Assembly: GCA_032718475.1 (NCBI GenBank)
Contig: JAUCBJ010003122.1
Location: 20,490 to 84,489, forward strand
DNA: 64,000 nt
Origin: Nemertoderma westbladi
Taxonomy: Eukaryota > Animalia > Xenacoelomorpha
Direction of reading: 5' to 3'
Positions 5,705 to 63,203 of the stretch are shown in pieces. The notes under the pieces are model-generated. The model searched no databases. It saw nothing but the letters and a program-made list of their open reading frames with translations, and was not told the DNA's origin. The position numbers and the translations under genes were made by a program. The first letter of the stretch is position 1. Every line of letters begins with the position of its first letter.

Positions 5705-5707
5705 ATG
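5705..5707 (+). CDS. LZTFL1: LZTFL1 coding exon 1 (ATG only)
   Basis: ttaaATG|gtaagt is a perfect donor directly after ATG. Phase 0 joins exon 2 to give MATSNK... Confidence 0.6.
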
Positions 5708-8700: not shown

Positions 8701-11700
8701 GTTGCAGTCGAGTGATTAAAATATGAAAACAGCAAACATTAAAATTGCAGATTTTAGATTTTTAGATTAGATTTTAGATTACTTTTGTGAATTTATTTAA
8801 AATTTAATGAGAACATTTGGAATACAACTAATTATAATTTCCAAAGTTTTATAGTGTTCTGCTTCTGATATAATATCTCCATCAGAACGTTCGTTCATAA
8901 ACAGACCGCATACTGTAAGGTCGTACTTTACAGTTATCATAATGCAAAGTCGTACTTTGCATTACAGGCAAGAAAAAGTCTATAAATAGTTATTATATTT
9001 CATTTAGCAAGCTGAACAATGGGAGTTAACATTTTCCGCTGATCTCGGTCGAATAGAAGATCAAAGGGGAATGGCAGACGTCGCAGCTTGGGAGGATAAA
9101 GAATTCGGTTAGTTTCAGTTTAATGGGATATATAATTTGGTTAGTTTCAGTTTAATAGGATAAATCATTTGGTTAGTTTCAGTTTAAAAGAATCAATAAT
9201 TTGGTTAGTTTCAGTTTAATAGGATAAAGAATTTGGTTAGTTTCAGTTTAAGAGGATAAGGAATTCGGTTAGTTTCAGTTTAATAGGATAAAGAATTTGG
9301 TTAGTTTAAGTTTAAGAGGATAAATAATTCGGTTAGTTTCAGTTTAAGGGATTAAGAATTCGGTTAGTTTCAGTTTAAGAGGATAATAATGCGGTTAGCT
9401 TCAGTTTAAGATGATAAGGAATTCGGTTAGTTTCAGTTTAATAGGATAAATAATTTGTTTAGTTTCAGTTTAAGAGGATAATAATTCGGTTAGTTTCAGT
9501 TTAAGGGATTAAGAATTCGGTTAGTTTCAGTTTAAGAGGATAAATAATTTGTTTAGCTTCAGTTTAAGAGGATAAGGAATTTGGTTAGTTTCAGTTTAAT
9601 AGGATAAATAATTTTGTTGGTTTCAGTTTAAGAGGATAAATAATTTGGTTAGTTTCAGTTTAAGAGGATAAGGAATTTGGTTAGTTTCAGTTTAATAGGA
9701 TAAATAATTTTGTTGGTTTCAGTTTAAGAGGATAATAATGCGGTTAGTTTCAGTTTAGGAGGATAAATAATTTGTTTAGTTTCAGTTTAAGAGGATAATA
9801 ATTCGGTTAGTTTCAGTTTAAGGGATTAAGAATTCGGTTAGTTTCAGTTTAAGAGGATAAATAATTTGTTTAGCTTCAGTTTAAGAGGATAAGGAATTTG
9901 GTTAGTTTCAGTTTATTAGGATAAATAATTTTGTTGGTTTCAGTTTAAGAGGATAAATAATTTGGTTAGTTTCAGTTTAAGAGGATAAAGAATTTGGTTA
10001 GTTTCAGTTTAAGAGGATAAGGAATTCGGTTAGTTTCAGTTTAAGATGATAAGGAATTCGGTTAGTTTCAGTTTAATAGGATAAAGAATTTGGTTAGTTT
10101 CAGTTTAAGAGGATAATAATTCGGTTAGTTTCAGTTTAAGGGATTAAGAATTCGGTTAGTTTCAGTTTAATAGGATAAATAATTTGTTTAGTTTCAGTTT
10201 AAGAGGATAATAATTCGGTTAGTTTCAGTTTAAGGGATTAAGAATTCGGTTAGTTTCAGTTTAAGAGGATAAATAATTTGTTTAGCTTCAGTTTAAGAGG
10301 ATAAGGAATTTGGTTAGTTTCAGTTTAATAGGATAAATAATTTTGTTGGTTTCAGTTTAAGAGGATAAATAATTTGGTTAGTTTCAGTTTAAGAGGATAA
10401 AGAATTTGGTTAGTTTCAGTTTAAGAGGATAAGGAATTCGGTTAGTTTCAGTTTAAGATGATAAGGAATTCGGTTAGTTTCAGTTTAAGAGGATAAAGAA
10501 TTTGGTTAGTTTCAGTTTAAGAGGATAAGGAATTCGGTTAGTTTCAGTTTAAGATGATAAGGAATTCGGTTAGTTTCAGTTTAATAGGATAAATAATTTG
10601 TTTAGTTTCAGTTTAAGAGGATAAATAATTTGTTTAGTTTCAGTTTAAGAGGATAAGGAATTCGGTTAGTTTCATTTTAATAGGAAAAATAATTTTGTTG
10701 GTTTCAGTTTAATAGGATAAATAATTTTGTTGGTTTCAGTTTAAGAGGATAATAATGCGGTTAGTTTCAGTTTAAGAGGATAAAGAATTTGGTTAGTTTC
10801 AGTTTAAGAGGATAATAATTCGCTTAGTTTCAGTTTAAGAGGATAAATAATTTGTTTAGCTTCAGTTTAAGAGGATAATAATTCGGTTAGTTTCAGTTTA
10901 AGAGGATAAATAATTTGTTTAGCTTCAGTTTAAGAGGATAAGGAATTCGGTTAGTTTCAGTTTAAGAGGATAAATAATTTGTTTAGTTTCAGTTTAAGAG
11001 GATAAGGAATTCGGTTAGTTTCAGTTTATTAGGATAAGTAATTTTGTTGGTTTCAGTTTAAGAGGATAAATAATTTGGTTAGTTTCAGTTTAAGAGGATA
11101 ATAATGCGGTTAGTTTCAGTTTAAGAGGATAAATAATGTGTTTAGTTTCAGTTTAAGAGGATAAGGAATTCGGTTAGTTTCAGTTTAATAGGATAAATAA
11201 TTTTGTTGGTTTCAGTTTAAGAGGATAAAGAATTTGGTTAGTTTCAGTTTAAGAGGATAAGGAATTCGGTTAGTTTCAGTTTAAGAGGATAAATAATTTG
11301 TTTAGCTTCAGTTTAAGAGGATAAATAATTTGTTTAGCTTCAGTTTAAGAGGATAAATAATTTGGTTAGTTTCAGTTTAAGAGGATAATAATGCGGTTAG
11401 TTTCAGTTTAAGAGGATAAATAATGTGTTTAGTTTCAGTTTAAGAGGATAAGGAATTCGGTTAGTTTCAGTTTAATAGGATAAATAATTTTGTTGGTTTC
11501 AGTTTAAGAGGATAAAGAATTTGGTTAGTTTCAGTTTAAGAGGATAAGGAATTCGGTTAGTTTCAGTTTAAGAGGATAAATAATTTGTTTAGCTTCAGTT
11601 TAAGAGGATAAATAATTTGTTTAGCTTCAGTTTAAGAGGATAAATAATTTGGTTAGTTTCAGTTTAAGAGGATAATAATGCGGTTAGTTTCAGTTTAAGA

Positions 11701-14700
11701 GGATAAATAATGTGTTTAGTTTCAGTTTAAGAGGATAAGGAATTCGGTTAGTTTCAGTTTAATAGGATAAATAATTTTGTTAGTTTCAGTTTAAGAGGAT
11801 AAAGAATTTGGTTAGTTTCAGTTTAAGAGGATAAGGAATTCGGTTAGTTTCAGTTTAATAGGATAAATAATTTTGTTGGTTTCAGTTTAAGAGGATAAAG
11901 AATTTGGTTAGTTTCAGTTTAAGAGGATAAGGAATTCGGTTAGTTTCAGTTTAAGAGGATAAATAATGTGTTTAGTTTCAGTTTAAGATTATAAGGAATT
12001 CGGTTAGTTTCAGTTTAATAGGATAAATAATTTTGTTGGTTTCAGTTTAAGAGGATAAAGAATTTGGTTAGTTTCAGTTTAAGAGGATAAGGAATTCGGT
12101 TAGTTTCAGTTTAAGAGGATAAATAATTTGTTTAGCTTCAGTTTAAGAGGATAAATAATTTGTTTAGCTTCAGTTTAAGAGGATAAATAATTTGGTTAGT
12201 TTCAGTTTAAGAGGATAATAATGCGGTTAGTTTCAGTTTAAGAGGATAAATAATGTGTTTAGTTTCAGTTTAAGAGGATAAGGAATTCGGTTAGTTTCAG
12301 TTTAAGAGGATAAATAATGTGTTTAGTTTCAGTTTAAGAGGATAAGGAATTCGGTTAGTTTCAGTTTAATAGGATAAATAATTTTGTTGGTTTCAGTTTA
12401 AGAGGATAAATAATTTGGTTAGTTTCAGTTTAAGAGGATAAAGAATTTGGTTAGTTTCAGTTTAAGAGGATAAGGAATTCGGTTAGTTTCAGTTTAAGAT
12501 GATAAGGAATTCGGTTAGTTTCAGTTTAATAGGATAAAGAATTTGGTTAGCTTCAGTTTAAGAGGATAATAATTCGGTTAGTTTCAGTTTAAGAGGATAA
12601 ATAATTTGTTTAGTTTCAGTTTAAGAGGATAAATAATTTGTTTAGTTTCAGTTTAAGAGGATAAGGAATTCGGTTAGTTTCATTTTAATAGGAAAAATAA
12701 TTTTGTTGGTTTCAGTTTAATAGGATAAATAATTTTGTTGGTTTCAGTTTAAGAGGATAATAATGCGGTTAGTTTCAGTTTAAGAGGATAAAGAATTTGG
12801 TTAGTTTCAGTTTAAGAGGATAATAATTCGCTTAGTTTCAGTTTAAGAGGATAAATAATTTGTTTAGCTTCAGTTTAAGAGGATAATAATTCGGTTAGTT
12901 TCAGTTTAAGAGGATAAATAATTTGTTTAGCTTCAGTTTAAGAGGATAAATAATTTGTTTAGTTTCAGTTTAAGAGGATAAATAATTTGTTTAGCTTCAG
13001 TTTAAGAGGATAAATAATTTGGTTAGTTTCAGTTTAAGAGGATAATAATGCGGTTAGTTTCAGTTTAAGAGGATAAATAATGTGTTTAGTTTCAGTTTAA
13101 GAGGATAAGGAATTCGGTTAGTTTCAGTTTAATAGGATAAATAATTTTGTTGGTTTCAGTTTAAGAGGATAAAGAATTTGGTTAGTTTCAGTTTAAGAGG
13201 ATAAGAAATTCGGTTAGTTTCAGTTTAAGAGGATAAATAATTTGTTTAGCTTCAGTTTAAGATGATAAATAATTTGTTTAGCTTCAGTTTAAGAGGATAA
13301 ATAATTTGGTTAGTTTCAGTTTAAGAGGATAATAATGCGGTTAGTTTCAGTTTAAGAGGATAAATAATGTGTTTAGTTTCAGTTTAAGAGGATAAGGAAT
13401 TCGGTTAGTTTCAGTTTAATAGGATAAATAATTTTGTTGGTTTCAGTTTAAGAGGATAAAGAATTTGGTTAGTTTCAGTTTAAGAGGCTAAGGAATTCGG
13501 TTAGTTTCAGTTTAATAGGATAAATAATTTTGTTGGTTTCAGTTTAAGAGGATAAAGAATTTGTTTAGCTTCAGTTTAAGAGGATAAATAATTTGTTTAG
13601 TTTCAGTTTAAGAGGATAAATAATTTGGTTAGTTTCATTTTAAGGGGATAATAATGCGGTTAGTTTCAGTTTAAGAGGATAAATAATGTGTTTAGTTTCA
13701 GTTTAAGAGGATAAGGAATTCGGTTAGTTTCAGTTTAATAGGATAAATAATTTTGTTGGTTTCAGTTTAAGAGGATAAAGAATTTGGTTAGTTTCAGTTT
13801 AAGAGGATAAGGAATTCGGTTAGTTTCAGTTTAAGAGGATAAATAATTTGTTTAGCTTCAGTTTAAGAGGATAAATAATTTGTTTAGTTTCAGTTTAAGA
13901 GGATAAATAATTTGGTTAGTTTCAGTTTAAGAGGATAATAATGCGGTTAGTTTCAGTTTAAGAGGATAAATAATGTGTTTAGTTTCAGTTTAAGAGGATA
14001 AGGAATTCGGTTAGTTTCAGTTTAATAGGATAAATAATTTTGTTGGTTTCAGTTTAAGAGGATAAAGAATTTGGTTAGTTTCAGTTTAAGAGGATAAGGA
14101 ATTCGGTTAGTTTCAGTTTAAGAGGATAAATAATTTGTTTAGCTTCAGTTTAAGAGGATAAATAATTTGTTTAGCTTCAGTTTAAGAGGATAAATAATTT
14201 GGTTAGTTTCAGTTTAAGAGGATAATAATGCGGTTAGTTTCAGTTTAAGAGGATAAATAATGTGTTTAGTTTCAGTTTAAGAGGATAAGGAATTCGGTTA
14301 GTTTCAGTTTAATAGGATAAATAATTTTGTTGGTTTCAGTTTAAGAGGATAAAGAATTTGGTTAGTTTCAGTTTAAGAGGATAAGGAATTCGGTTAGTTT
14401 CAGTTTAATAGGATAAATAATTTTGTTGGTTTCAGTTTAAGAGGATAAAGAATTTGGTTAGTTTCAGTTTAAGAGGATAAGGAATTCGGTTAGTTTCAGT
14501 TTAAGAGGATAAATAATGTGTTTAGTTTCAGTTTAAGAGGATAAGGAATTCGGTTAGTTTCAGTTTAATAGGATAAATAATTTTGTTGGTTTCAGTTTAA
14601 GAGGATAAAGAATTTGGTTAGTTTCAGTTTAAGAGGATAAGGAATTCGGTTAGTTTCAGTTTAAGAGGATAAATAATTTGTTTAGCTTCAGTTTAAGAGG

Positions 14701-17700
14701 ATAAATAATTTGTTTAGCTTCAGTTTAAGAGGATAAATAATTTGGTTAGTTTCAGTTTAAGAGGATAATAATGCGGTTAGTTTCAGTTTAAGAGGATAAA
14801 TAATGTGTTTAGTTTCAGTTTAAGAGGATAAGGAATTCGGTTAGTTTCAGTTTAAGAGGATAAATAATGTGTTTAGTTTCAGTTTAAGAGGATAAGGAAT
14901 TCGGTTAGTTTCAGTTTAATAGGATAAATAATTTTGTTGGTTTCAGTTTAAGAGGATAAATAATTTGGTTAGTTTCAGTTTAAGAGGATAAAGAATTTGG
15001 TTAGTTTCAGTTTAAGAGGATAAGGAATTCGGTTAGTTTCAGTTTAAGATGATAAGGAATTCGGTTAGTTTCAGTTTAATAGGATAAAGAATTTGGTTAG
15101 CTTCAGTTTAAGAGGATAATAATTCGGTTAGTTTCAGTTTAAGAGGATAAATAATTTGTTTAGTTTCAGTTTAAGAGGATAAATAATTTGTTTAGTTTCA
15201 GTTTAAGAGGATAAGGAATTCGGTTAGTTTCATTTTAATAGGAAAAATAATTTTGTTGGTTTCAGTTTAATAGGATAAATAATTTTGTTGGTTTCAGTTT
15301 AAGAGGATAATAATGCGGTTAGTTTCAGTTTAAGAGGATAAAGAATTTGGTTAGTTTCAGTTTAAGAGGATAATAATTCGCTTAGTTTCAGTTTAAGAGG
15401 ATAAATAATTTGTTTAGCTTCAGTTTAAGAGGATAATAATTCGGTTAGTTTCAGTTTAAGAGGATAAATAATTTGTTTAGCTTCAGTTTAAGAGGATAAA
15501 TAATTTGTTTAGTTTCAGTTTAAGAGGATAAATAATTTGTTTAGCTTCAGTTTAAGAGGATAAATAATTTGGTTAGTTTCAGTTTAAGAGGATAATAATG
15601 CGGTTAGTTTCAGTTTAAGAGGATAAATAATGTGTTTAGTTTCAGTTTAAGAGGATAAGGAATTCGGTTAATTTCAGTTTAATAGGATAAATAATTTTGT
15701 TGGTTTCAGTTTAAGAGGATAAAGAATTTGGTTAGTTTCAGTTTAAGAGGATAAGGAATTCGGTTAGTTTCAGTTTAAGAGGATAAATAATTTGGTTAGC
15801 TTCAGTTTAAGAGGATAAATAATTTGGTTAGTTTCAGTTTAAGAGGATAATAATGCGGTTAGTTTCAGTTTAAGAGGATAAATAATGTGTTTAGTTTCAG
15901 TTTAAGAGGATAAGGAATTCGGTTAGTTTCAGTTTAATAGGATAAATAATTTTGTTGGTTTCAGTTTAAGAGGATAAAGAATTTGGTTAGTTTCAGTTTA
16001 AGAGGATAAGGAATTCGGTTAGTTTCAGTTTAATAGGATAAATAATTTTGTTGGTTTCAGTTTAAGAGGATAAAGAATTTGTTTAGCTTCAGTTTAAGAG
16101 GATAAATAATTTGTTTAGTTTCAGTTTAAGAGGATAAATAATTTGGTTAGTTTCAGTTTAAGAGGATAATAATGCGGTTAGTTTCAGTTTAAGAGGATAA
16201 ATAATGTGTTTAGTTTCAGTTTAAGAGGATAAGTAATTCGGTTAGTTTCAGTTTAATAGGATAAATAATTTTGTTGGTTTCAGTTTAAGAGGATAAAGAA
16301 TTTGGTTAGTTTCAGTTTAAAAGGATAAGGAATTCGGTTAGTTTCAGTTTAAGAGGATAAATAATTTGTTTAGCTTCAGTTTAAGAGGATAAATAATTTG
16401 TTTAGTTTCAGTTTAAGAGGATAAATAATTTGTTTAGCTTCAGTTTAAGAGGATAAATAATTTGGTTAGTTTCAGTTTAAGAGGATAATAATGCGGTTAG
16501 TTTCAGTTTAAGAGGATAAATAATGTGTTTAGTTTCAGTTTAAGAGGATAAGGAATTCGGTTAGTTTCAGTTTAATAGGATAAATAATTTTGTTGGTTTC
16601 AGTTTAAGAGGATAAAGAATTTGGTTAGTTTCAGTTTAAGAGGATAAGGAATTCGGTTAGTTTCAGTTTAAGAGGATAAATAATTTGTTTAGCTTCAGTT
16701 TAAGAGGATAAATAATTTGTTTAGCTTCAGTTTAAGAGGATAAATAATTTGGTTAGTTTCAGTTTAAGAGGATAATAATGCGGTTAGTTTCAGTTTAAGA
16801 TGATAAATAATGTGTTTACTTTCAGTTTAAAAGGATAAGGAATTCGGTTAGTTTCAGTTTAATAGGATAAATAATTTTGTTGGTTTCAGTTTAAGAGGAT
16901 AAAGAATTTGGTTAGTTTCAGTTTAAGAGGATAAGGAATTCGGTTAGTTTCAGTTTAATAGGATAAATAATTTTGTTGGTTTCAGTTTAAGAGGATAAAG
17001 AATTTGGTTAGTTTCAGTTTAAGAGGATAATGAATTCGGTTAGTTTCAGTTTAAGAGGATAAATAATGTGTTTAGTTTCAGTTTAAGAGGATAAGGAATT
17101 CGGTTAGTTTCAGTTTAATAGGATAAATAATTTTGTTGGTTTCAGTTTAAGAGGATAAAGAATTTGGTTAGTTTCAGTTTAAGAGGATAAGGAATTCGGT
17201 TAGTTTCAGTTTAAGAGGATAAATAATTTGTTTAGCTTCAGTTTAAGAGGATAAATAATTTGTTTAGCTTCAGTTTAACAGGATAAATAATTTGGTTAGT
17301 TTCAGTTTAAGAGGATAATAATGCGGTTAGTTTCAGTTTAAGAGGATAAATAATGTGTTTACTTTCAGTTTAAGAGGATAAGGAATTCGGTTAGTTTCAG
17401 TTTAAGAGGATAAATAATGTGTTTAGTTTCAGTTTAAGAGGATAAGGAATTCGGTTAGTTTCAGTTTAATAGGATAAATAATTTTGTTGGTTTCAGTTTA
17501 AGAGGATAAATAATTTGGTTAGTTTCAGTTTAAGAGGATAAAGAATTTGGTTAGTTTCAGTTTAAGAGGATAAGGAATTCGGTTAGTTTCAGTTTAAGAT
17601 GATAAGGAATTCGGTTAGTTTCAGTTTAATAGGATAAAGAATTTGGTTAGTTTCAGTTTAAGAGGATAATAATTCGGTTAGTTTCAGTTTAAGAGGATAA

Positions 17701-53700: not shown

Positions 53701-56700
53701 CCCCCAACTGGGGCGGAAACCGCGCTCAAATGCACCCTCCTCCACCACCAGCAGGAAAGTCAGCAGCAGTCGGCTCAGACCACGGTCACGGTCCGGTGTA
53801 GTCGATATGACCACCGTCTGGAGCTCCTCCACTACTGCCGCACGAAGCTGTGCTACGGGATCATCGGGCATCACTCGGACTACGTGATATTCGACCCTCC
53901 TCACTTCCTGTCGGGTGCCGACCTTGTCCTGGCCCGGACTCATACCGGTCTCCCGATTCTCCGTGGTTGTCGCAACGTTGTTTCTCCAATGTCCAGTATC
54001 CCCGTCGCCTTCAAGTTTCTACCTTGTATTGTTTGCCAGAGAAGTAGATCTGGTATGTTTACTTCTTTCCACTTTCCACTGTGGCTCGAAAGAACTTAGT
54101 CTCCAAGTGCTGGAGAATTCTGATTTCCATATGGTATCATTTTTTATAGCGCTACCCCAAGCCTTTGCTCTCCTAACTTCTATGTCCTTTTTGCTCCTCT
54201 CTATCCATGACCCTAGGTACTGGAAGTCGTCAACCTTCCTTCGTTGATTATTATCAATGGTTGTCAAGTTTCCATCAACATTAAAGGTCCTGAATTCGGT
54301 CTTGGTAGCATTTATATGCAATCCAACCTCCTTAGCAGCCCTCTCCACTTTATTTAGTAAAAGCTGTGCATCTGTTAGCGTATTAGAGAGCAGGGCGATG
54401 TCATCCGCAAAGTCGGTGTCTGTGACTGTAGTTGCCGGATATCTGCAACTTTAGCGTTCTTGAAGTGTGAATCCCAGATCGTCATCCTCTGTGGCCGTCC
54501 TCATTGCGTAATCCAGATCAATTACAAATAGTAATGGTGCTAATGTGTCACCTTGCAGTACGCCAGCCAGGATTGAGAAAAACTCAGTTTCACCATCTGG
54601 TGAGAGTACCTGAGCTTCTGTGTAACAATTATTATTCATTCCTTTCGTACACATTGCAAAAAACACAACAAACTGGTACAATAGTATTGATAATACTTAC
54701 TTTGTATTAAATGGCAACTTTTATTTTCGTAGTTATCTGATCCCGACGTGATCAACCAGCTACGGACCCTGAAAGATAAGAACGCCTTCGCGTTAGACGT
54801 TCCACCAGAGGGGAGGTCACAGGTTTTGGACGAGGTGAGTTTAACAGCTGTTTAATTTTATTATATAATAACAACTTAATTAAGTTACTATGTAGCTAAT
54901 TATGAAACTGTAAAATGTGCAATGACACCGACCCGTTTATCTAGGCGAGTTAATGTAGCATAAAGCCAAAAAGTAATTGGCAATGAACCCGAACCACTTT
55001 TTTGGATTCTATATTACCTTGTTAATCACCAAATAGTCTATAAAAAATTATTTTGCGGAACATATATAATTATTCATTGAAATTCCACATGAATTGGCTT
55101 AACTCAAGCCAAACAGTAGGGGAAAGTAAGTAGCAAATTAAATTGGTGATTTCCCATTAATTCATTTCAAAATAAGCTGTGATTCAATGGGGAATTAATA
55201 AAATTTACACAGCCTGTCACACGTCAATTGTTATATCTCGGTAACTATAAGTCGCATCCAATTATTAAATATATCAAAAGTTTAATAATATTTATTAAGG
55301 TAACTATAATAATAATAATTCAGAATTCCCATTAATGTTAGCGAAGATTTTTCACGTAATAAAATAATTGTGATTGCCATATTGATTTTAAGTCAAGTGT
55401 AATTTATTTATTTGTTTTAGTTTGAAAACCACAATAGTCTATAATATAACAAATCTATTTTTTGGGGATAAGAGTATTTGAGGTCGATAAATCCGATAGG
55501 CGAGATTACATGCACCCGTTTTGTAGAGAAGTTGTGTAAATAAGGTCCTTATATTGTACCAGCAAAATTGGTATTAAAAATGATTAAATGATTAGTAAAA
55601 GTTCCGTTGCTCTGGAAACTAAATTATAACTATAGATGTGCAGTGTTCAGTCAATCGATAGTCATTAGACTAAAGATCGTCTGTACCTTATTTGGGGAAA
55701 ATCCCACAACCGTTGTTGCTATGTGAAATCCCTGTTGCTAAGGAAAGAAGCATGGAATCTAAAGTGATGCGCATAATTTATTTTTATAGACTTTCTATGT
55801 ATGTGTAGGTACGTAATTGCGATATTGTATAAGCATACCGTAGTTACCCAGAGCTACTCGCGATACAATATCGCGTTAAAGAATGTCGTGTAATAATGTG
55901 GAGAATAAATGGCCTCTGAACATTATTTTTGCAATCTTTAATCACAATATATCAGGTGTTATAAAAAAAATCAAACTATTTTACATTTTTGGAATCCTTT
56001 AAACATTTCTACACATAAAAATCACGACTAATGCGAAGAATCGATACGAAGGGTAAGATAAAATAGAAGCTTATAAAAAATTTAAAGGGAAAATATAAAC
56101 TAAATGGCTCCGTTTTAACTTCGACCGTGTGTTTTCTAGTTAAGTTTAAAATTTCATTCGATATTATATATTATATATAAAGATTTGAATAATTTTTTTT
56201 TTTTGGGGGGGGGGGTTTCTTGTCATCAGAAAATGACTCTCGTGTCATCATGAATAATATAAATAATCATAATAATGATAACTACTTTTCTTAAATTTTA
56301 GTCCATAATGGGAACAAATTAGTGAAAAAAGCGGTGTGAAAATTAGTGTGAAAATTAGTGTGAAACTTTTGGATTGTGAAAATTGATATCTGATTGAATT
56401 GAGATCTGATTTGATTGGAATCTTGATAAAATTCTGCTCTTGATGAAATATAAAAAAATATTTGTAAAATATTATTGAAATGGCGCTACCCCCGCCCCCC
56501 CCCCCCCCCTCCCCCCCTTAAGAAATGATGGAGGGGTAGTAACCACCAATTTTTGTTCAGCTTTGTCTCAAAATTATTGGTCAGAATTTTATAATTTTAC
56601 ATCCATCTCATTTTATTACTATACTTTATTATTATTTTGCCATTTAAATGTGAAAATGCAAATTTTTGAAAAAAATCACATGTAACAAATTTGATAATAA

Positions 56701-57273
56701 ATAATATAAAAGTTAATTATCGTATTAAATGTATAATTCAACACTACCAATAGTTACAAAAGTCATTTTGTTAGGGGGGAGGGGGGGGGGGGGTGAAGGT
56801 TAATAAGTTAGGGATACTAAATATCACTAAATTATTATAAATATATTAAAAATTTAATTTATTTAAACCACCTCATGTTATCAATTAACCCAAATTCCAA
56901 AAATATTTCAATTTATTCAATACCTTTTCTGCTGTCCGGTTATTATAGTAGTTAGTAAAGTAATATGCTCATGAAGTGGAGCTAATGATGCTTTGTTATC
57001 TGTAAGTTCATATTACTAAGCTCTTAATACATTTGATTCTAAATTTGGGTTTTTCGAGTATTTGTTAGCGGATTTCAATTCGTCAGTTCGTCTATACTTG
57101 ATAATGATTTTGTTGTATTTTATCTTAGAAATTAATAGTTTTGGAATTATTAAAATGTTCAATTTTATTTCTTTCGGCAGGAAAAACTTGTAAAACAAGT
57201 TGCAGCGATGGACCTCGAAGAAACAAAAGTCCAATTAATTCAAGTTCGACAAGAGTTAGACTCAGCCCTCAAT
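5705..57273 (+). CDS. LZTFL1: Leucine zipper transcription factor-like protein 1 (LZTFL1/BBS17) homolog; spliced, 3' end beyond window
   Basis: Exons 5705-5707, 6024-6163, 8366-8504, 9008-9107, 37582-37739, 54733-54834 and 57181-57273 are all GT-AG and phase-compatible, giving about 245 aa with no stops. Collinear with recalled human LZTFL1 (RFARSKRGLRLKTVDSCF; TFTIDEVS; VLLLRQLFAQAEKW; EILRLQ; LLRVQEQL). Confidence 0.88.
6024..6163 (+). CDS. LZTFL1: LZTFL1 exon 2
   Basis: ttgtttag|...CG|gtaagc. Encodes ATSNKVSEPKYQQHKTTLVNLVRFCRYRRALMMQTVEACFGDTRAS(R). Confidence 0.9.
6791..8292 (+). mobile_element. Two adjacent or nested HINE/Helentron-like non-autonomous elements (about 6791-7520 and 7648-8292)
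   Basis: Both start actagaaa(a)g(t/c)cagcaagct. agaagaccgt (6817-6826) is the inverted complement of acggtcttct (8279-8288), with variant actgtcttct at 7505. Microsatellite-like tracts (cacacagacaaacaaac; gatagaaagatagatag) and a small hairpin gact-aaaa-agtc precede the 3' ends. Confidence 0.5.
8366..8504 (+). CDS. LZTFL1: LZTFL1 exon 3
   Basis: aatatag|...GAG|gtattc. Encodes (R)VQETTYTKDEVSNMLEELEDTLRTEMEAEMMYNSRATVLLLRMLFE. Confidence 0.9.
9008..9107 (+). CDS. LZTFL1: LZTFL1 exon 4
   Basis: tttcatttag|...TTCG|gttagt. Encodes QAEQWELTFSADLGRIEDQRGMADVAAWEDKEF(G), phase 1. Confidence 0.9.
24069..24778. mobile_element. 710-bp MITE with TTAA target duplication (Kolobok-like termini), copy 1
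   Basis: TIR ggggggggtacaccatttt / aaaatggtgtacccccccc, flanked by ttaa on both sides. The empty site is a normal satellite unit. No ORF. RR...YY ends with a TTAA TSD fit Kolobok better than piggyBac. Confidence 0.9.
27810..28520. mobile_element. MITE copy 2, essentially identical to copy 1
   Basis: Same sequence apart from one extra G, and the same flanking satellite variants, 3741 bp downstream. Confidence 0.9.
32257..32459 (+). repeat. Gypsy 5' LTR
   Basis: 203 bp, TG...TA ends, direct repeat of 35981-36184. Confidence 0.9.
32486..33139 (+). CDS. gag: Gypsy Gag (217 aa)
   Basis: Two C-terminal zinc knuckles, CYNCGVAGHFARQC and CNRCTNHNHLPKDC. Confidence 0.9.
   Translation: MKLSITSDFACWETALRAEINLLVLQGKIEEEKKDEALLMKIQISVEDSILKKMHIDRRTTANSLLTKLKEVWTQLVVPTDGVNSLEFDIVSRDDVTKFDDNLRLLRYKRTISDDLAISIFIKNIKNEASRKIVLVQQFTSWDALVRFIMDTGISLTNCNQHTSHLPVSGAVKTGCYNCGVAGHFARQCFKRCNRCTNHNHLPKDCLKGKSKNDASQ
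33118..33160 (+). promoter_or_regulatory. -1 programmed ribosomal frameshift signal between gag and pol
   Basis: Slippery heptamer A_AAA_AAC in gag frame (33118-33124), 6-nt spacer, then a perfect 10-bp stem tcccagtagt/actactggga. pol is in the -1 frame. Confidence 0.85.
33139..35904 (+). CDS. pol: Gypsy Pol polyprotein (protease, RT, RNase H, integrase)
   Basis: Protease LDTGS; RT motifs RFCVDFRPLN, LDMTAGYWQ, YQDD; RNase H TDASDRAVGAVL and TDHKPL; integrase HHCC, SIDIVGP and PQGNGVIER. Confidence 0.95.
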   Translation: MGGATTGIINEPIAPFIYAEIDLNGGSPRIPMLDTGSELNLMSINMANDLSVPIIPHGIYFRTASGDVVKSRGFVQVWVKWGDIRQTFDFHVLGDPPFDLILGIRAIWTFPSILSYPIVAMTATTTTDTALSKEYFFKLFRWPSSWSSDNTKRLHDLIWEFQDIFSRSKFDVGRMKSFTHHIETSGPPIFRRQYKNAYTERENVHKIITEMHENNIISPASSPWNSPYLLVDKPDHSKRFCVDFRPLNKVTQDNKFPMPVIDELLDRLQGKKIFSTLDMTAGYWQVPLSEESKPKTAFQADHRQWQFNVLAMGLKNAAPEFQRDMQTVLRGLNTFPYQDDIINATETEEEHLESLQKIFVRLRNEGIKLKPSKCAFGLTEISYLGFIIQDGQVKPDPDKIKCIQEFPTPTNGKELQSFLGLINFYSRFAKRLATYAAPLYELTTKSKNKFKWLPEHSEVFDKVKNLFSEAVSLYIPDLSQAFIVRTDASDRAVGAVLSQIINSEEVPVHFASRTLRGSELNWSTTDKEFFSLHWAIRKFDMYLKGNEVTVYTDHKPLIGLIDKRAGNNQRQRRWLDYIQDFKLNINYIRGVENVVADTLSRLPLDSTFPNVKAAPFVPNAVCALKALSDKDSEIVARQYHDAGHYSINKTRAAILNDGLWFPKMRSTLRSIQDDCIECRTKKSYTKNPPKGELPNLETRAIGEIVSIDIVGPLPTTRLGFRYILSMIDMASRYLEAVPMKMVTAQITADAFQKGWVFRHGPPRRIHTYNGSQFRSALFNNILETAFCNYEIDHTYSSPYYPQGNGVIERIHRTLKDRIRCMSGDWQSNLSEAVYNINRHVHDGIECSPFFALYGYNVPPATYPAMLKENPSIMQSLAPPIPPPQRSTFGPKFHPPQRVVAKLSPQVVRLDQYGTVNIRKCT
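35981..36184 (+). repeat. Gypsy 3' LTR
   Basis: Direct repeat of the 5' LTR with several substitutions. Starts tttt instead of tgtg and is followed by the TSD aatag. Confidence 0.9.
37582..37739 (+). CDS. LZTFL1: LZTFL1 exon 5
   Basis: ctaatcgtccgcag|...CAG|gtaata; phase 1 matches exon 4. Encodes (G)KQVSQARPTYLQLDKLPNTQPGGRMQSEISRLQTQARETSIKLKAILEDPSQ. Confidence 0.85.
38240..40526 (-). mobile_element. RTE-clade LINE, 3' portion (RT domain, frameshifted)
   Basis: ORF pieces 39987-40460, 39126-39824, 39037-39222 and 38277-38939 with GSDHR, QNGFR, FVDFKKAFDS, GVLQGDTLAP, FADD and FQYLGSWI. (TAG)n-type tail near 38240-38280. Confidence 0.93.
40527..41734 (-). repeat. BEL/Pao 3' LTR (1208 bp)
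   Basis: Near-identical to 50597-51769 apart from a few substitutions and one ~35-bp indel. Confidence 0.95.
41755..43360 (-). pseudogene. Additional, apparently frameshifted ORF of unknown function in the 3' part of the BEL element
   Basis: Overlapping ORF pieces 42513-43220 (235 aa), 42205-42687 and 41755-42036 in element sense, in a GC-richer coding-like tract. No recognisable motif. Confidence 0.4.
44975..48400 (-). CDS. BEL/Pao Gag-protease fused in frame to an RNase H C-terminal remnant (1141 aa)
   Basis: DUF1759-like KFNGDEMKWLPF; triple knuckle CVLC..H..C, CYNC..GH..C, CAKC..HH..LH; protease ALLDSGS; then directly WRHCPETINLADIASRG..GPNFL..EWP. No YxDD or DDE region. Confidence 0.9.
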   Translation of the reverse strand: MSDTKRALSDSLLKGVRMSLRLGQCLERIEAERKVAAAEAERKAAEAVAEAEREASGATTQLELESLQAKQPDEGDITDPEGGGNRSRLSRRRRMPHCPKLPNLPPAVRLASTDQIITVERLPTIVDEPEIIRPVLEATPSVIETPVLPEPTSKFPLHSTKLPVPSRTVPESEPILDAERDIKNLSPVVSCLPATTLATPASAVEWVAEGRRKMGLLLGQLREHCKCSSQQVWELEGTVQQLKGAVREGRLALQEVQQSIASERDKLVNLQKGIPPPSVTMCQPVRSEVFHAQGVEPTRIYTASEVETPIVNPIKGNYKPVDNDIPYRPDHNPRNLYTDNSIFNNTMAQESFTRQMARTEARQAVKVGEIVKFNGDEMKWLPFNEYYKDNIQNSVLSNGEKLRYLIECLEGPPKLMALKFIGHPDGLRQVWDTLNFRYGNRNNIAGYLYAKLVAPRKFISSGIIEFSDEIQEICRQLDWLGKSHEYQSAMVIRAVTSTLPKGGVGTRWDKKVLYMMEQQQRDPTMADLMSFLDGEVKLQLIKQSREKTSESKVSEKPVSRRKVTPVCYTDDGESQTSQGEDSGKDTERSYYVNKTPKEQVSKFKSRTNDRREQVRKTPPTSPKRIHGRKPEERTSVHHTAHVKVSNIKPKCVLCDGPHRLNVCNEFLKKSLKDRCEVMWDKRLCYNCLRRGHQRRTCYSDARCAKCGAKHHILLHTEFERNSPSQVSESELHVQFSDVNDTDQSSEMEGFYTDEFSDQSSEMEGFYTDELSDENESCYLINTAVYRALTYEKETDSELPLTTSDRQPSWKAPTSNVGIREFPVVQLRVHGPKRSYIVNALLDSGSTGTFIDKELAEDIFAGQPQFRTKLNMSGIMQVWKSTVIADYYVGALSTPQDELGEHSIRSVKMVAIKNFATSQVEPYNWDEDDFTQQLEIPRFNTDYPGVQILIGQNAHEALETLEKRPAQPQPLQAYAGRTRVGWYFTGPSRRTLMERLPKDQVYQVREWEDESSELDDPTEGTPYSSDNDDINSNVDQWRHCPETINLADIASRGATPQELTDTPDRLGGPNFLSKEDEWPPHLNPAKIRKAKGAEKVTQPLNRPAGRLCLLERDRKLSGNYGRQDTLPTTTSLIQQISRDSIT
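49750..50320. repeat. Tandem duplication of about 290 bp in the BEL 5' leader
   Basis: acgctac..tacagactac..cagactactatcaagccta..tatatgcagactccgaaatg..gcctacaaattatct occurs twice. Confidence 0.85.
50597..51769 (-). repeat. BEL/Pao 5' LTR (1173 bp)
   Basis: Direct repeat of 40527-41734. CCAAT boxes on the minus strand near 51590 and 51610. Confidence 0.95.
51770..52790 (-). mobile_element. RTE-clade LINE, 5' portion (AP endonuclease and 5' UTR)
   Basis: KIATMNARTL, ICIQEHR, GGVGILL, AGDLNAQ. Removing the BEL element and one TSD restores GKLWTFQYPNGTKAQLDYIL across the junction. The 5' boundary is approximate. Confidence 0.9.
53213..53935 (+). pseudogene. FAM120A: FAM120A/C-like (constitutive coactivator of PPAR-gamma-like, PIN-like domain) 5' fragment, disrupted
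   Basis: MGIENFISYIKQH..VELFSLAK..LDVDACLPRLYGGYAVDWACGGQWNQM..VFFNGCLEK..NKGIPPPKAWWFPP..DH..SDY matches the recalled FAM120A N-terminus. Frameshift near 53330-53360, in-frame TGA at 53629, truncated by LINE sequence. Confidence 0.88.
53930..54625 (-). mobile_element. 5'-truncated, internally deleted RTE fragment (same family as 38240-40526)
   Basis: 54065-54620 closely matches 38660-39208. 53955-54057 matches the degenerate 3' end at 38310-38442. Confidence 0.9.
54733..54834 (+). CDS. LZTFL1: LZTFL1 exon 6 (probable)
   Basis: ttttattttcgtag|...GAG|gtgagt; 102 nt, phase 0-0, open. Encodes LSDPDVINQLRTLKDKNAFALDVPPEGRSQVLDE. Homology is weak but the length fits. Confidence 0.7.
57181..57273 (+). 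CDS. LZTFL1: LZTFL1 exon 7
   Basis: ttttatttctttcggcag|...AAT|gtaagt. Encodes EKLVKQVAAMDLEETKVQLIQVRQELDSALN, comparable to recalled human NLATAKHDLLRVQEQLHMAEK. Confidence 0.82.
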
Positions 57274-60200
57274 GTAAGTTCAATTCAACAAGAGTTAGAC
57301 TCAGCCCTCAATGTAAGTTCAATTCAACAAAAGTTAGACTCAGACCTCAATGTAAGTTCTATTCAACAAGAGTTAGAATCAGCACTCAATGTAAGTTCAA
57401 TTCAACAAGAGTTAGAATCAGCCCTCAATGTAAGTTCTATTCAACAAGAGTTAGACTCAGACCTCAATGTAAGTTCTATTCAACAAGAGTTAGAATCAGC
57501 ACTCAATGTAAGTTCAATTCAACAAGAGTTCGAATCAGCCCTCAATGTAAGTTCTATTCAACAAGAGTTAGACTCAGCCCTCAATGTAAGTTCTATTCAA
57601 CAAGAGTTAGAATCAGCCCTCAATGTAAGTTCTATTCAACAAGAGTTAGACTCAGCCCTCAATGTAAGTTCTATTCAACAAGAGTTAGACTCAGCCCTCA
57701 ATGTAAGTTCTATTCAACAAGAGTTAGACTCAGACCTCAATGTAAGTTCTATTCAACAAGAGTTAGAATCAGCACTCAATGTAAGTTCAATTCAACAAGA
57801 GTTAGAATCAGCCCTCAATGTAAGTTCTATTCAACAAGAGTTAGACTCAGACCTCAATGTAAGTTCTATTCAACAAGAGTTAGAATCAGCACTCAATGTA
57901 AGTTCAATTCAACAAAAGTTAGACTCAGCACTCAATGTAAGTTCTATTCAACAAGAGTTAGAATCAGCCCTCAATGTAAGTTCTATTCAACAAGAGTTAG
58001 ACTCAGCCCTCAATGTAAGTTCTATTCACCAGGAGTTAGACTCAGCCCTCAATGTAAATTAAATTCAACAAGAGTTAGACTCAGCCCTCAATGTAAGTTC
58101 AATTCGACAAGAGTTAGACTCAGCCCTCAATGTAAGGTCAATTCAACAAGAGTTAGACTCAGCACTCAATGTAAGTTCAATTCAACAAGAGTTAGACTCA
58201 GCACTCAATGTAAGTTCAATTCAACAAGAGTTAGAATCAGCCCTCAATGTAAGTTCTATTCAACAAGAGTTCGAATCAGCACTCAATGTAAGTTCAATTC
58301 AACAAGAGTTAGAATCAGCCCTCAATGTAAGTTCTATTCAACAAGAGTTAGACTCAGCACTCAATGTAAGTTCAATTCAACAAGAGTTAGAATCAGCCCT
58401 CAATGTAAGTTCTATTCAACAAGAGTTAGAATCAGCACTCAATGTAAGTTCAATTCAACAAGAGTTAGACTCAGCCCTCAATGTAAGTTATATTCAACAA
58501 CAGTTAGACTCAGCCCTCAATGTAAGTTATATTCAACAAGAGTTAGACTCAGCCCTAAATGTAAGTTCTATTCAACAAAAGTTAGAATCAGCCCTCAATG
58601 TAAGTTCTATTCAACAAGAGTTAGAATCAGCACTCAATGTAAGTTCAATTCAACAGGAGTTAGACTCAGCCCTCAATGTAAGTTCAATTCAACAAGAGTT
58701 AGAATCAGCACTCAATGTAAGTTATATTCAACAAGAGTTAGAATCAGTACTCAATGTAAGTTCTATTCAACAAGAGTTAGAATCAGCACTCAATGTAAGT
58801 TCAATTCAACAAGAGTTAGAATCATCACTCAAGGTAAGTTCAATTCAACAAGAGTTAGACTCAGCACTCAATGTAAGTTCAATTCAACAGGAGTTAGACT
58901 CAGCCCTCAATGTAAGTTATATCCAACAAGAGTTAGAATCAGACCTCAATGTAAGTTATATTCAACAAGAGTTAGACTCAGCCCTCAATGTAAGTTCTAT
59001 TCAACAAGAGTTAGAATCAGCCCTCAATGCAAGTTCTATTCAACAGGAGTTAGATTCAGCCCTCAATGTAAGTTGTATTCAACAAGAGTTAGACTCAACC
59101 CTCAATGTAAGTTCTATTCAACAAGAGTTAGACTCAGCCCTCAATGTAAGTTCTATTCAACAGATTCAGCCCTCAATGTAAGTTCTATTCAACAAGAGTT
59201 AGACTCTGCCCTCAATGTAAGTTCTATTCAACAAGAGTTAGAATCAGCACTCAATGTAAGTTCAATTCAACAAGAGTTAGACTCAGCCCTCAATGTAAGT
59301 TATATTCAACAACAGTTAGACTCAGCCCTCAATGTAAGTTATATTCAACAAGAGTTAGACTCAGCCCTAAATGTAAGTTCTATTCAACAAAAGTTAGAAT
59401 CAGCCCTCAATGTAAGTTCTATTCAACAAGAGTTAGAATCAGCACTCAATGTAAGTTCAATTCAACAGGAGTTAGACTCAGCCCTCAATGTAAGTTCAAT
59501 TCAACAAGAGTTAGAATCAGCACTCAATGTAAGTTATATTCAACAAGAGTTAGAATCAGTACTCAATGTAAGTTCTATTCAACAAGAGTTAGAATCAGCA
59601 CTCAATGTAAGTTCAATTCAACAAGAGTTAGAATCATCACTCAAGGTAAGTTCAATTCAACAAGAGTTAGACTCAGCACTCAATGTAAGTTCAATTCAAC
59701 AGGAGTTAGACTCAGCCCTCAATGTAAGTTATATCCAACAAGAGTTAGAATCAGACCTCAATGTAAGTTATATTCAACAAGAGTTAGACTCAGCCCTCAA
59801 TGTAAGTTCTATTCAACAAGAGTTAGAATCAGCCCTCAATGCAAGTTCTATTCAACAGGAGTTAGATTCAGCCCTCAATGTAAGTTGTATTCAACAAGAG
59901 TTAGACTCAACCCTCAATGTAAGTTCTATTCAACAAGAGTTAGACTCAGCCCTCAATGTAAGTTCTATTCAACAGATTCAGCCCTCAATGTAAGTTCTAT
60001 TCAACAAGAGTTAGACTCTGCCCTCAATGTAAGTTCTATTCAACAAGAGTTAGACTCAGCACTCAATGTAAGTTCAATTCAACAAGAGTTAGACTCACCC
60101 CTCAATGTAAGTTATATTCAACAAGAGTTAGACTCAGCCCTCAATGTAAGTTCTATTCAACAAGAGTTAGAATCAGCCCTCAATGTAAGTTCTATTCAAC

Positions 60201-63200
60201 AAGAGTTAGAATCATCACTCGATGTAGGTTCAATTCAACAAGAGTTAGAATCAGCCCTCAATGTAAGTTCAATTCAACAAGAGTTAGAATCAGCACTCAA
60301 TCTAAGTTCAATTCAACAGGAGTTAGAATTAGCCCTCAATGTAAGTTCAATTCAACAAGAGTTAGAATCAGCACTCAATGTAAGTTCAATTCTACAAGAG
60401 TTAGAATCAGCCCTCAATGTAAGTTCAATTCAACAAGAGTTAGACTCAGCCCTCAATGTAAGTTCAATTCAACAAGAGTTATAATCAGCCCTCAATGTAA
60501 GTTCAATTCAACAGGAGTTAGACTCAGCCCTCAATGTAAGTTCAATTCGACAAGAGTTAGACTCAGCCCTCAATGTAAGTTCTATTCAACAAGAGTTAGA
60601 CTCAGCACTCAATGTAAGTTCAATTCGACAAGAGTTAGACTCAGCCCTCAATGTAAGTTATATTCAACAAGAGTTAGACTCAGCCCTCAATGTAAGTTCA
60701 ATTCAACAAGAGTTAGACTCATCACTCGATGTAGGTTCAATTCAACAAGAGTTAGAATCATCACTCGATGTAGGTTCAATTCAACAAGAGTTAGAATCAG
60801 CCCTCAATGTAAGTTCAATTCAACAAGAGTTAGAATCAGCACTCAATCTAAGTTCAATTCAACAGGAGTTAGAATTAGCCCTCAATGTAAGTTCTATTCA
60901 ACAAGAGTTAGACTCAGCACTCAATGTAAGTTCAATTCGACAAGAGTTAGACTCAGCCCTCAATGTAAGTTATATTCAACAAGAGTTAGAATCAGCCCTC
61001 AATGTAAGTTATATTCAACAAGAGTTAGACTCAGCCCTCAATGTAAGTTCTATTCAACAAGAGTTAGAATCAGCACTCAATGTAAGTTCTATTCAACAGG
61101 AGTTAGATTCAGCCCTCAATGTAAGTTGTATTCAACAAGAGTTAGACTCAACCCTCAATGTAAGTTCTATTCAACAAGAGTTAGACTCAGCCCTCAATGT
61201 AAGTTCTATTCAACAAGAGTTAGACTCTGCCCTCAATGTAAGTTCTATTCAACAAGAGTTAGACTCAGCACTCAATGTAAGTTCAATTCGACAAGAGTTA
61301 GACTCAGACCTCAATGTAAGTTATATTTAACAAGAGTTAGACTAAGCCCTCAATGTAAGTTCAATTCAACAAGAGTTAGAATCAGCCCTCAATGTAAGTT
61401 CAATTCGACAAGAGTTAGAATCAGCCCTCAATGTAAGTTCAATTCAACAAGAGTTAGACTCAGCCCTCAATGTAAGTTATATTCAACAAGAGTTAGACTC
61501 AGCCCTCAATGTAAGTTCTATTCAACAAGAGTTAGAATCAGCCCTCAATGTAAGTTCTATTCAACAAGAGTTAGAATCAGCACTCAATGTAAGTTCAATT
61601 CTACAAGAGTTAGAATCAGCCCTCAATGTAAGTTCAATTCAACAAGAGTTAGACTCAGCCCTCAATGTAAGTTCAATTCAACAAGAGTTATAATCAGCCC
61701 TCAATGTAAGTTCCATTCAACAGGAGTTAGACTCAGCCCTCAATGTAAGTTCAATTCGACAAGAGTTAGACTCAGCCCTCAATGTAAGTTCAATTCGACA
61801 AGAGTTAGACTCAGCCCTCAATGTACGTTCTATTCAACAAGAGTTAGACTCAGCACTCAATGTAAGTTCAATTCGACAAGAGTTAGACTCAGCCCTCAAT
61901 GTACGTTCTATTCAACAAGAGTTAGACTCAGCACTCAATGTAAGTTCAATTCGACAAGAGTTAGACTCAGCCCTCAATGTAAGTTCAATTCAACAATGTT
62001 AGCGAATTCAATTCCGCCAACCACCCCATAAAGTTGGCCAAGCAGGGCCTTTAAGCAATATTGGGAGTACGAGGTTGATTGCCAATCAACCTCGTATCAC
62101 CCCAATAAACGGGGACAACAGGCCCCAAAGGAACACACACAGCGGGGGTCAGGGAGAGAATGACAGTAGCAAGGGGAAAACACTCCCAGAGAGATGGGAG
62201 GGCGAGTATTAGGTTATCAGCCAATGGGGGGTAGGCATCCGCTGAGTAATATGGCCAAACCAGAGCAGTATATTACCGGTTGGTGTTCATTCATTCATTC
62301 ACTCAATTAGTCAGTTCAGTTAGGGCAGAACGGTAACTCTTATCACTGTCCACTGCCACCATCATTAACATATTACCGGTATCATTCAGTTTACTTATAC
62401 ATTTATTGTTCCTGATTTCTGTTACTCTTTAACCTATATAACCATTTATACATATCTATCAACAATATTATAACTCTCAATAACACCAGAACTCTTTTCA
62501 CATACACACAGCGGGGACGCGTAAATAAGATAACCACACAACCAGGATAAACCGGGATTCTCGGATCCCGTCACAAACAAGAGTTATAATCAGCCCTCAA
62601 TGTAAGTTCAATTCAACAGGAGTTAGACTCAGCCGTCAATGTAAGTTCAATTCGACAAGAGTTAGACTCTGCCCTCAATGTAAGTTCTATTCAACAAGAG
62701 TTAGACTCAGCACTCAATGTAAGTTCAATTCGACAAGAGTTAGACTCAGACCTCAATGTAAGTTATATTTAACAAGAGTTAGACTCAGCCCTCAATGTAA
62801 GTTCAATTCAACAAGAGTTAGACTCAGCCATCAATGTAAGTTCAATTCAACAAGAGTTGGAATCAGCCCTCAATGTAAGTTCAATTCGTCAACAGTTAGA
62901 ATCAGCCCTCAATGTAAGTTCAATTCAACAGGAGTTAGACTCAGCCCTCAATGTAAGTTCTATTCAACAAGAGTTAGACTCAGCACTCAATGTAAGTTCA
63001 ATTCGACAAGAGTTAGACTCAGCCCTCAATGTACGTTCTATTCAACAAGAGTTAGACTCAGCACTCAATGTAAGTTCAATTCGACAAGAGTTAGACTCAG
63101 CCCTCAATGTAAGTTATAATTAGCCCTCAATGTAAGTTCAATTCAACAGGAGTTAGACTCAGCCGTCAATGTAAGTTCAATTCGACAAGAGTTAGACTCT

Positions 63201-63203
63201 GCC
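57245..63203 (+). repeat. Satellite array 2: 39-bp unit TTC(A/G)ACAAGAGTTAGACTCAGCCCTCAAT|GTAAGTTCAA, roughly 135-140 copies
   Basis: Directly visible. Unit = last 29 nt of exon 7 + first 10 nt of intron 7. Interrupted by a solo LTR and cut at the right by a LINE. Confidence 0.97.
61997..62575. mobile_element. Solo LTR (579 bp)
   Basis: TGTT...CACA termini, 5-bp TSD AACAA (61992-61996 and 62576-62580), no ORF. Unrelated to the other LTRs in the window. Confidence 0.85.

What the first reader, a model, noticed from the sequence alone, without database searches (positions are those of the whole stretch)
9092..63203. Two independent satellites in one gene are both amplified exon-end/5' splice-site junctions
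Seen: array 1 (32 bp) is the last 16 nt of LZTFL1 exon 4 plus the first 16 nt of the intron (..GAATTCG|GTTAGT..). Array 2 (39 bp) is the last 29 nt of exon 7 plus 10 nt of intron (..CTCAAT|GTAAGT..). The two units share no sequence, yet each begins at a functional donor and extends downstream in sense, creating hundreds of donor copies. Inference: two of seven donors being seeded this way suggests a recurrent, splice-site-linked amplification process. Candidates include transcription/U1/R-loop-coupled slippage, RNA-templated synthesis, or selection for U1-site arrays that protect long introns from premature polyadenylation. I know of no named system of this kind.
Basis: partly seen in the sequence, partly recalled or inferred. 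Interest (0 to 1): 0.9.

Follow-up and report, generated by a model that had tools for sequence, protein, structure and literature searches.

The report
Giant splice-donor satellites in LZTFL1 introns
In an unidentified eukaryote's LZTFL1-like gene, short pieces covering two exon ends and their splice signals have been copied about 730 and 140 times into the following introns; the RNA seen uses the original signal at the first array, so these are likely unusually large examples of a repeat type already known from lancelet and human genes, not a new splicing device.

Summary
A 32-bp unit (16 exon + 16 intron nt; 728 copies, about 23 kb) starts at the exon-4 donor. An unrelated 39-bp unit (29 + 10 nt; 138 copies) starts at the predicted exon-7 donor. 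A spliced contig ends exon 4 at the first donor; exon 7 has no RNA test. The claim that no named system exists is wrong: these fit amphioxus 'mirages' and human F7/CBS-type donor minisatellites, and lancelet PGBD5 already has two junction repeats in one gene. This scan found the same layout on many other genomes. The arrays look like drifting DNA. Only 1 of 728 and 3 of 138 units equal the junction copy; 31% of array-1 units have lost the GT; multi-kb blocks were re-copied with an inserted transposon; array 2 shows no coding constraint. This argues against ongoing RNA templating and against selection for U1 sites. What stands out is size: intron 4 likely grew from about 0.1 kb to 28 kb. Whether seeding is biased towards donors stays open (chance 4e-5 to 7e-4 per window, before allowing for the many windows scanned); no genome was available.

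The parts
5705..5707 (+). LZTFL1-like exon 1, coding part (ATG); the spliced contig reaches upstream to at least 5600
   Evidence: joint 5706>6023 GT..AG in X4 contig
6024..6163 (+). exon 2
   Evidence: PF15294 E 0.04; spliced
8366..8504 (+). exon 3
   Evidence: PF15294 E 1.8e-10; spliced
9008..9107 (+). exon 4; its last 16 nt are the first half of array-1 unit 1; donor at 9108 is the one used
9092..37490 (+). array 1: 32-bp unit (16 exon + 16 intron nt), 728 units, about 23.3 kb net; 501 of 728 keep GT; leaves 91 nt of unique intron before exon 5
24069..24778 (.). 710-bp non-coding element with 19-bp terminal inverted repeats and TTAA target duplication, inside array 1 (copy 1)
   Evidence: element class (MITE-like) is inference
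27810..28520 (.). second, 100% identical copy of the TIR element, made by a 3,742-bp block duplication of the array
   Evidence: exact match runs 2,428 bases beyond the element
32257..36184 (+). LTR retrotransposon (gag zinc knuckle; protease-RT-RNase H-integrase order; LTRs 97% alike; AATAG target duplication) inserted into array 1
   Evidence: Gypsy-type from the domain order (recalled)
37582..37739 (+). exon 5 (predicted); no array at its donor
   Evidence: open frame; no Pfam hit alone
54733..54834 (+). exon 6 (predicted); no array at its donor
57181..57273 (+). exon 7 (predicted); its last 29 nt are the first part of array-2 unit 1; donor GTAAGT at 57274
   Evidence: no RNA test
57245..63203 (+). 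array 2: 39-bp unit (29 exon + 10 intron nt), 138 units, about 5.4 kb net; 134 of 138 keep GT; in frame with exon 7, first stop at 58060
61997..62575 (.). 579-bp TG..CA insertion with AACAA target duplication (solo-LTR-like) inside array 2
   Evidence: class is inference
63250..63930 (-). LINE-like reading frame just after the visible end of array 2; the array may resume beyond the window
   Evidence: DUF6451, also hit by the RT frame at 38280-39059

Best explanation
Two unrelated tandem arrays each begin with a copy of an exon end plus its splice donor, and each likely arose from one small DNA duplication across the junction that was then expanded by ordinary replication slippage and unequal exchange. 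Such a duplication is likely tolerated because the exon and first donor stay intact and the spliceosome keeps the most upstream donor (seen in one spliced contig for array 1, inferred for array 2). The extra copies then drift as intron DNA, collect transposons and are re-copied in multi-kilobase blocks. This is the amphioxus 'mirage' / human F7-type repeat, grown to satellite size. Shown: anatomy, first-donor use at exon 4, block duplication, donor loss in array 1. Inferred: the seeding step, neutrality, and an ancestral intron 4 of about 110-125 nt.
For: Unit 1 of each array is the exon/intron junction. Run X4 holds a 1,349-nt contig spliced at introns 1-3; its exon-4 side is 104 letters (9006-9109, the last two being the GT shared with exon 5). 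Bin depth 278.3 equals 436.4 x 81/127, against 388.3 if donor 2 were used, and X4 depth on 9156-9400 is 0. Higher-order blocks occur in both arrays, with a 3,742-bp duplication carrying a TIR element in array 1 and a 21-unit block twice in array 2. End units of array 1 are more diverged (nearest-neighbour distance 1,2,1,3 for the first four and 3 for the last; 681 of 708 interior units have an identical twin), the edge exclusion described for mirages (PMC3087553). G+1 ranks 3rd most variable of 32 positions in array 1. Array 2 has 9 synonymous of 39 distinct substitutions in the exon frame, against 25 of 117 possible. Precedents.
Against: Both large arrays in the window sit on donors, none on an acceptor or in free intron. 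Random placement gives 3.5e-5 to 7.4e-4, so tolerance alone does not explain the position unless this window is a selected extreme. Array 2 keeps GT in 134 of 138 units and the +1..+6 GTAAGT with the same three exon bases in 126 of 138, about the array's background level but compatible with retention. Weighted by copy number, 133 of 285 changes in array 2 are synonymous, though three amplified variants make up 120 of them. The RNA evidence is one assembled contig from one run labelled 'DNA?'; contigs drop rare isoforms. Exon 7 has no RNA test.
Confidence: 0.72

Rival explanations
1. Seeding is mutationally biased to 5' splice sites. Polymerase pausing, U1 binding or R-loops at exon ends would make small duplications arise there far more often than elsewhere; later growth is ordinary DNA turnover. 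This adds to the best explanation and changes only why the seed sits there.
For: 2 of 7 donors and 0 of 6 acceptors carry arrays; random placement 3.5e-5 to 7.4e-4. Amphioxus papers call junction repeats possibly general with mechanism unclear (PMC3087553). An unchecked scan note (e1-8147634) claims an excess at exon ends in a probable annelid.
Against: Donor versus acceptor is not significant (Fisher p 0.46). With 250,000 windows scanned, 9 to 185 such pairs would be expected if every window held two arrays (an upper bound). Acceptor-side arrays exist too (BflGb6). Short matches near both seed borders offer a plain microhomology reason, not tested for significance. No genome was available.
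Confidence: 0.3
2. The arrays are kept by selection as U1 snRNP landing sites that protect long introns from premature polyadenylation, or act as regulated decoy donors.
For: Array 2 has 23 GTRAGT per kb in sense and 134 of 138 intact GT. The array stretches tested hold no AATAAA.
Against: 227 of 728 array-1 units have lost the GT, and G+1 is the most variable intron-derived position; its copies match the U1 consensus at only 4-6 of 9 positions. Without the array and its inserts intron 4 would be about 0.1 kb, so the array makes the length it is supposed to protect. Intron 5 (17 kb, 19 AATAAA) has no array.
Confidence: 0.07
3. Array 2 is a coding device: alternative use of its in-frame donors adds 13-residue repeats to the protein's C-terminal part.
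For: The 39-bp unit is 13 codons, open in the exon-7 frame for 293 codons and 20 GTAAGT donors (the real one included) before the first stop at 58060. Common variants are largely synonymous when weighted by copies. Human CBS and 6-16 use the two nearest pseudo-sites (PMC1557585).
Against: Distinct substitutions show no synonymous excess (9 of 39 against 25 of 117 possible), and 2 stop-making changes occur. A second forward frame is also stop-free in the majority unit, so an open frame is not special. Array 1 would stop at once. No RNA or peptide evidence.
Confidence: 0.08
4. The arrays grow by repeated RNA-templated copying of the exon/donor junction.
For: Both arrays extend downstream in sense from a donor, and retroelements are abundant in the window.
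Against: Only 1 of 728 and 3 of 138 units equal the junction copy, with no gradient of likeness towards the donor. Multi-unit blocks, one carrying a TIR element, were duplicated exactly. Downstream sense extension is what any surviving donor-spanning duplication gives.
Confidence: 0.03

Closest known systems
Amphioxus 'mirage' minisatellites (Adh3, troponin C, globins BflGb6/BflGb9, PGBD5). PMC3087553: matching passages read; PMC3902484: matching passages read. The original Adh3 paper was not held.
   Same: Tandem duplications spanning an exon/intron boundary; unit lengths 10-160 bp; many but not all copies keep AG/GT; normal splicing continues; array ends excluded from homogenisation; PGBD5 has two different repeats (60 and 108 bp) at two junctions of one gene.
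   Different: Copy numbers in the passages read are 2-7 for the globin and PGBD5 cases (Adh3 numbers not seen), against 728 and 138 here, with higher-order blocks and nested transposons. The organism here is not identified.
Human donor-spanning minisatellites: F7 intron 7 (37 bp), CBS intron 13, interferon-inducible 6-16, LAMIN B2, PDGF intron 4. PMC1557585: abstract and matching passages read.
   Same: The first monomer spans the exon/intron boundary, so the donor is reiterated downstream; the most upstream site is used (F7, LAMIN B2, PDGF), or it and the next two (CBS, 6-16).
   Different: 5-25 copies in single introns, against 728 here; two arrays in one gene here; donor decay in 31% of array-1 units.
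Internal tandem repeats at exon-intron boundaries in human segmental duplications. PMC2812944: sections 6 and 12 read.
   Same: Variable tandem repeats at exon-intron boundaries are a documented class (27 curated intron modifications).
   Different: Many of those change gene structure or the protein; no such change is seen here.
Giant introns of Drosophila Y-linked genes. PMC11207136: abstract and outline only; their satellite content is recalled.
   Same: An intron enlarged by repeats; LZTFL1's role in cilia and sperm is recalled, not tested.
   Different: Those reach megabases; a donor-derived unit is not described in the abstract; the intron here is 28 kb.

Membership tests
Mirage / donor-spanning minisatellite | Head-to-tail repeat whose terminal unit spans an authentic exon/intron boundary | tested here: met
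   exon 4 confirmed by a spliced contig; exon 7 predicted from frame and GT..AG only
Mirage / donor-spanning minisatellite | Splice signal reiterated in many but not all copies | tested here: met
   GT in 501 of 728 and 134 of 138 units
Mirage / donor-spanning minisatellite | mRNA uses the authentic, most upstream donor: array 1 | tested here: met
   X4 contig ends exon 4 at 9107 (+2 shared letters), depth 0 on the array; one contig, rare isoforms not visible
Mirage / donor-spanning minisatellite | mRNA uses the authentic, most upstream donor: array 2 | not tested
   No RNA result was obtained for exons 5-7
Mirage / donor-spanning minisatellite | Concerted evolution inside the array, diverged ends | tested here: met
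   Array 1: 681 of 708 interior units have an identical twin, end units differ by 1-3. Not clear at the start of array 2.
Mirage / donor-spanning minisatellite | Length polymorphism between alleles or cells | not testable with these tools
   Short-read contigs do not span the arrays
Mirage / donor-spanning minisatellite | Locus-specific unit, not a dispersed satellite family | tested here: inconclusive
   No other copy in the window; no genome held
U1 telescripting element | U1-pairing bases conserved above background | tested here: not met
   G+1 is 3rd most variable of 32 positions in array 1; in array 2 the GT ranks 27th and 28th of 39, at background
U1 telescripting element | U1 occupancy suppresses premature polyadenylation | not testable with these tools
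   Needs CLIP and 3'-end sequencing
Coding tandem repeat under selection (array 2) | Synonymous excess and stop avoidance in the exon frame | tested here: not met
   9 synonymous, 28 non-synonymous, 2 stop of 39 distinct changes; possible 25, 85, 7

The most novel reading that the evidence does not exclude
In this lineage small tandem duplications arise preferentially at 5' splice sites through a transcription- or U1-coupled process, and such seeds are a main route by which short introns balloon into 10-30 kb satellite-filled introns. A spliceosome that picks the first of about 500 GT-bearing copies over 28 kb would make this gene a natural, extreme test of first-donor selection.
Probability: 0.22. 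Interest if true: 0.65.

Novelty: new member of a known kind. Interest (0 to 1): 0.3.

Why it matters
As it stands this is a further case of a known repeat type, notable for scale. Array 1 has about 30 times the copies of the largest case in the passages read (25 pseudo-sites) and likely turned an intron of about 0.1 kb into 28 kb without disturbing the splice seen. It is a good natural substrate for asking how the first of hundreds of near-identical donors is chosen. If a genome-wide count showed an excess of array starts at donors, it would link splicing to where satellite DNA is born, a mechanism the amphioxus paper calls unclear. One window cannot show that.

Tried and rejected
Whole-genome enrichment test: no genome is held, and the scan has no other notes on this genome. 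Run search listed no RNA-labelled holder; X4, labelled 'DNA?', gave a contig joined across three GT..AG introns with zero depth in most intron bins, so I read it as RNA. No RNA result was obtained for exons 5-7. The X4 contig has 794 nt beyond exon 4, of which exons 5-7 would take 353: compatible, not proof. Summed contig depth over array 1 was 25,849, 14,911 and 1,036 in X1-X3 against about 8-65 in unique flanks; the tool warns this is no copy number, so it is not used to judge dispersion. Orthologue searches with the 46-residue exon 3 found nothing; the Atlas gave PF15294 clusters at 0.85-0.91 with a low recognition score, so the organism and orthologous introns remain unknown. A look-up of the LTR element's pol among earlier findings was empty. 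The binomial test on GT loss is discarded because units are not independent. Assembly artefact: rejected for the start of array 1. Paper searches (listings) showed no genome-wide test of array starts at donors and no donor-derived array of this size; PMC10078293 (passages) covers repeats of up to 20 bp that associate with splicing, not this question. The library lacks most subscription journals, so this is not proof of absence. No supplements were read; those of PMC3087553 and PMC3902484 hold the repeat alignments. Two last look-ups among earlier findings were empty.
Full report
1. The observation. TRF finds two large repeat families in the window: a 32-bp array at 9092-32253 and 36188-37487, and a 39-bp array at 57245-61996 and 62576-63203; other arrays have fewer than 5 copies or are sub-periods of these. 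Alignment to the first unit gives 728 good units of 768 rows for array 1 and 138 of 140 for array 2; the dropped rows are two inserted elements and end stubs. Net repeat DNA is about 23.3 kb and 5.4 kb. The units are unrelated (15 of 32 at best) and do not occur elsewhere in the window.

2. The gene. Seven exons join into one open frame of 245 codons with GT..AG introns of 316, 2,202, 503, 28,474, 16,993 and 2,346 nt; the gene continues beyond the window. Exons 2, 3 and 4 match successive parts of Pfam PF15294 Leu_zip; exons 5 and 7 give no hit alone and exon 6 was not scanned. The Atlas also returns PF15294 clusters for exon 3. That this family is LZTFL1 is recalled. Unit 1 of array 1 is the last 16 nt of exon 4 plus 16 intron nt; unit 1 of array 2 is the last 29 nt of exon 7 plus 10 intron nt. 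Junction 24-mers are repeated nearby at 2 of 7 donors and 0 of 6 acceptors. The organism could not be placed: exon-sized searches found nothing and no genome is held.

3. RNA. No run was listed as RNA, but X4 holds a 1,349-nt contig (depth 436) joined across introns 1-3 at GT..AG. Its exon-4 side is 104 letters, 9006-9109. Exon 5 and intron 4 both begin with GT, so this is a splice at 9107. The bin depth 278.3 matches this exactly (388.3 would be expected for donor 2), and X4 has no depth on 9156-9400. So the first of 501 GT-bearing copies is used in the assembled transcript; rare isoforms would not show. Use of donor 2 would meet a stop at once. There is no RNA result for exon 7. DNA contigs of X1 and X3 run into the array with no differences, so its start is not an assembly artefact.

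4. How the arrays grew. Array 1 has 75 unit variants in higher-order blocks. A 710-bp element with 19-bp inverted ends and a TTAA duplication sits in it twice, 100% identical, because a 3,742-bp block was copied (exact match 2,428 bases beyond the element). An LTR retrotransposon with 97% identical LTRs splits the array at 32257-36184, and a 579-bp TG..CA element splits array 2. Array 2 repeats a 21-unit block. Only 1 of 728 and 3 of 138 units equal the junction copy, with no gradient towards the donor; end units of array 1 are the most diverged. This is DNA-level turnover and does not fit repeated RNA-templated copying. After the last unit of array 1 only 91 nt of unique intron remain, so intron 4 likely began at about 110-125 nt (inference).

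5. Is there selection on the copies? In array 1, 227 of 728 units have lost the GT; G+1 is the third most variable of 32 positions and the most variable intron-derived one, and copies match the donor consensus at 4-6 of 9 positions. These counts reflect a few amplified variants, so I give no p-value. In array 2 the GT is kept in 134 of 138 units, at about the array's background level. The array stretches tested hold no AATAAA, while intron 5 holds 19 and has no array. Array 2 is in frame with exon 7 up to a stop at 58060, past 20 donors, but distinct substitutions show no synonymous excess (9 of 39 against 25 of 117). Against my reading, 133 of 285 copy-weighted changes are synonymous, mostly from three variants.

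6. Chance. Placing two seeds at random gives 3.5e-5 to 7.4e-4 for both straddling a donor; the upper value uses a guessed transposon-free length for intron 5. If each of 250,000 windows held two arrays, 9 to 185 such pairs would arise by chance, an upper bound. Donor versus acceptor is not significant (Fisher p 0.46). Tolerance explains why such arrays survive, not why both sit at donors. A seeding bias is neither shown nor excluded.

7. What is known. Human F7, CBS, 6-16, LAMIN B2 and PDGF carry minisatellites whose first unit spans a donor, with 5-25 copies; the first site, or it and the next two, is used (PMC1557585; abstract and passages). Amphioxus 'mirages' span either boundary, keep AG/GT in many copies, do not disturb splicing and show diverged ends; their mechanism is called unclear (PMC3087553; passages). 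Lancelet PGBD5 has two different repeats at two junctions of one gene (PMC3902484; passages). Boundary repeats are catalogued in human segmental duplications (PMC2812944; sections 6 and 12). The 'mirage' lead came from earlier scan notes, which report the same layout in many other genomes, up to about 140 copies; these are unchecked notes, and I checked only the papers. Eight paper searches listed no genome-wide test of donor enrichment and no case of this size, within the limits of the library.

8. Verdict. A real, large, new member of a known kind. Most likely two independent junction-spanning duplications were tolerated and grew as ordinary satellite DNA (0.72). A mutational bias to donors is the live open question (0.3 as an add-on). 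U1 protection (0.07), a coding role for array 2 (0.08) and RNA-templated growth (0.03) are poorly supported. Interest 0.3.

Noticed in passing
window 53214-53965 (+): Fragment resembling the 5' coding part of FAM120 inside intron 5, between two LINE pieces, broken by a frameshift and a stop; best hits are hagfish FAM120 proteins at 56% identity. Likely a pseudogene fragment.
   Followed up: partly
window 37740-54732: Intron 5 is mostly transposable elements: LINE frames (38280-40469, 51987-52484, 54022-54450), 1.2-kb direct repeats at 40527-41734 and 50597-51769 (96% alike) around a DUF1759-bearing frame at 44978-48433, likely an LTR element.
   Followed up: partly
window about 980-4010 (+): Three probable exons of an upstream gene (about 980-1150, 2298-2450, 3815-4010); none has an array at its borders; the one frame scanned (2179-2451) had no Pfam hit.
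   Followed up: partly
window 37458-37490: The last unit of array 1 carries a GTGAGT donor, closer to consensus than the GTTAGT in use, 91 nt before exon 5; it may reflect the ancestral intron start.
   Followed up: no
window 9076-9091 and 57229-57244: Short matches between the exon sequence just upstream of each seed and the unit's end could mark microhomology at the first duplication; significance not tested.
   Followed up: partly
window 7124-7377: A short, very high-copy repeat in intron 2: summed contig depth of hundreds of thousands in the DNA runs, also present in X4.
   Followed up: no
window 554-829 and 7674-7951: Two 78%-alike copies of a dispersed repeat of about 280 bp.
   Followed up: no
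window 5600-6830: Contigs of X1, X2 and X3 (two samples, two studies) match the window with no difference over 1,231 bases, hinting at low diversity or shared material.
   Followed up: no
window 57003-57011: A 9-letter match to the intron part of the array-2 unit lies in intron 6, about 180 nt before exon 7; probably chance.
   Followed up: no
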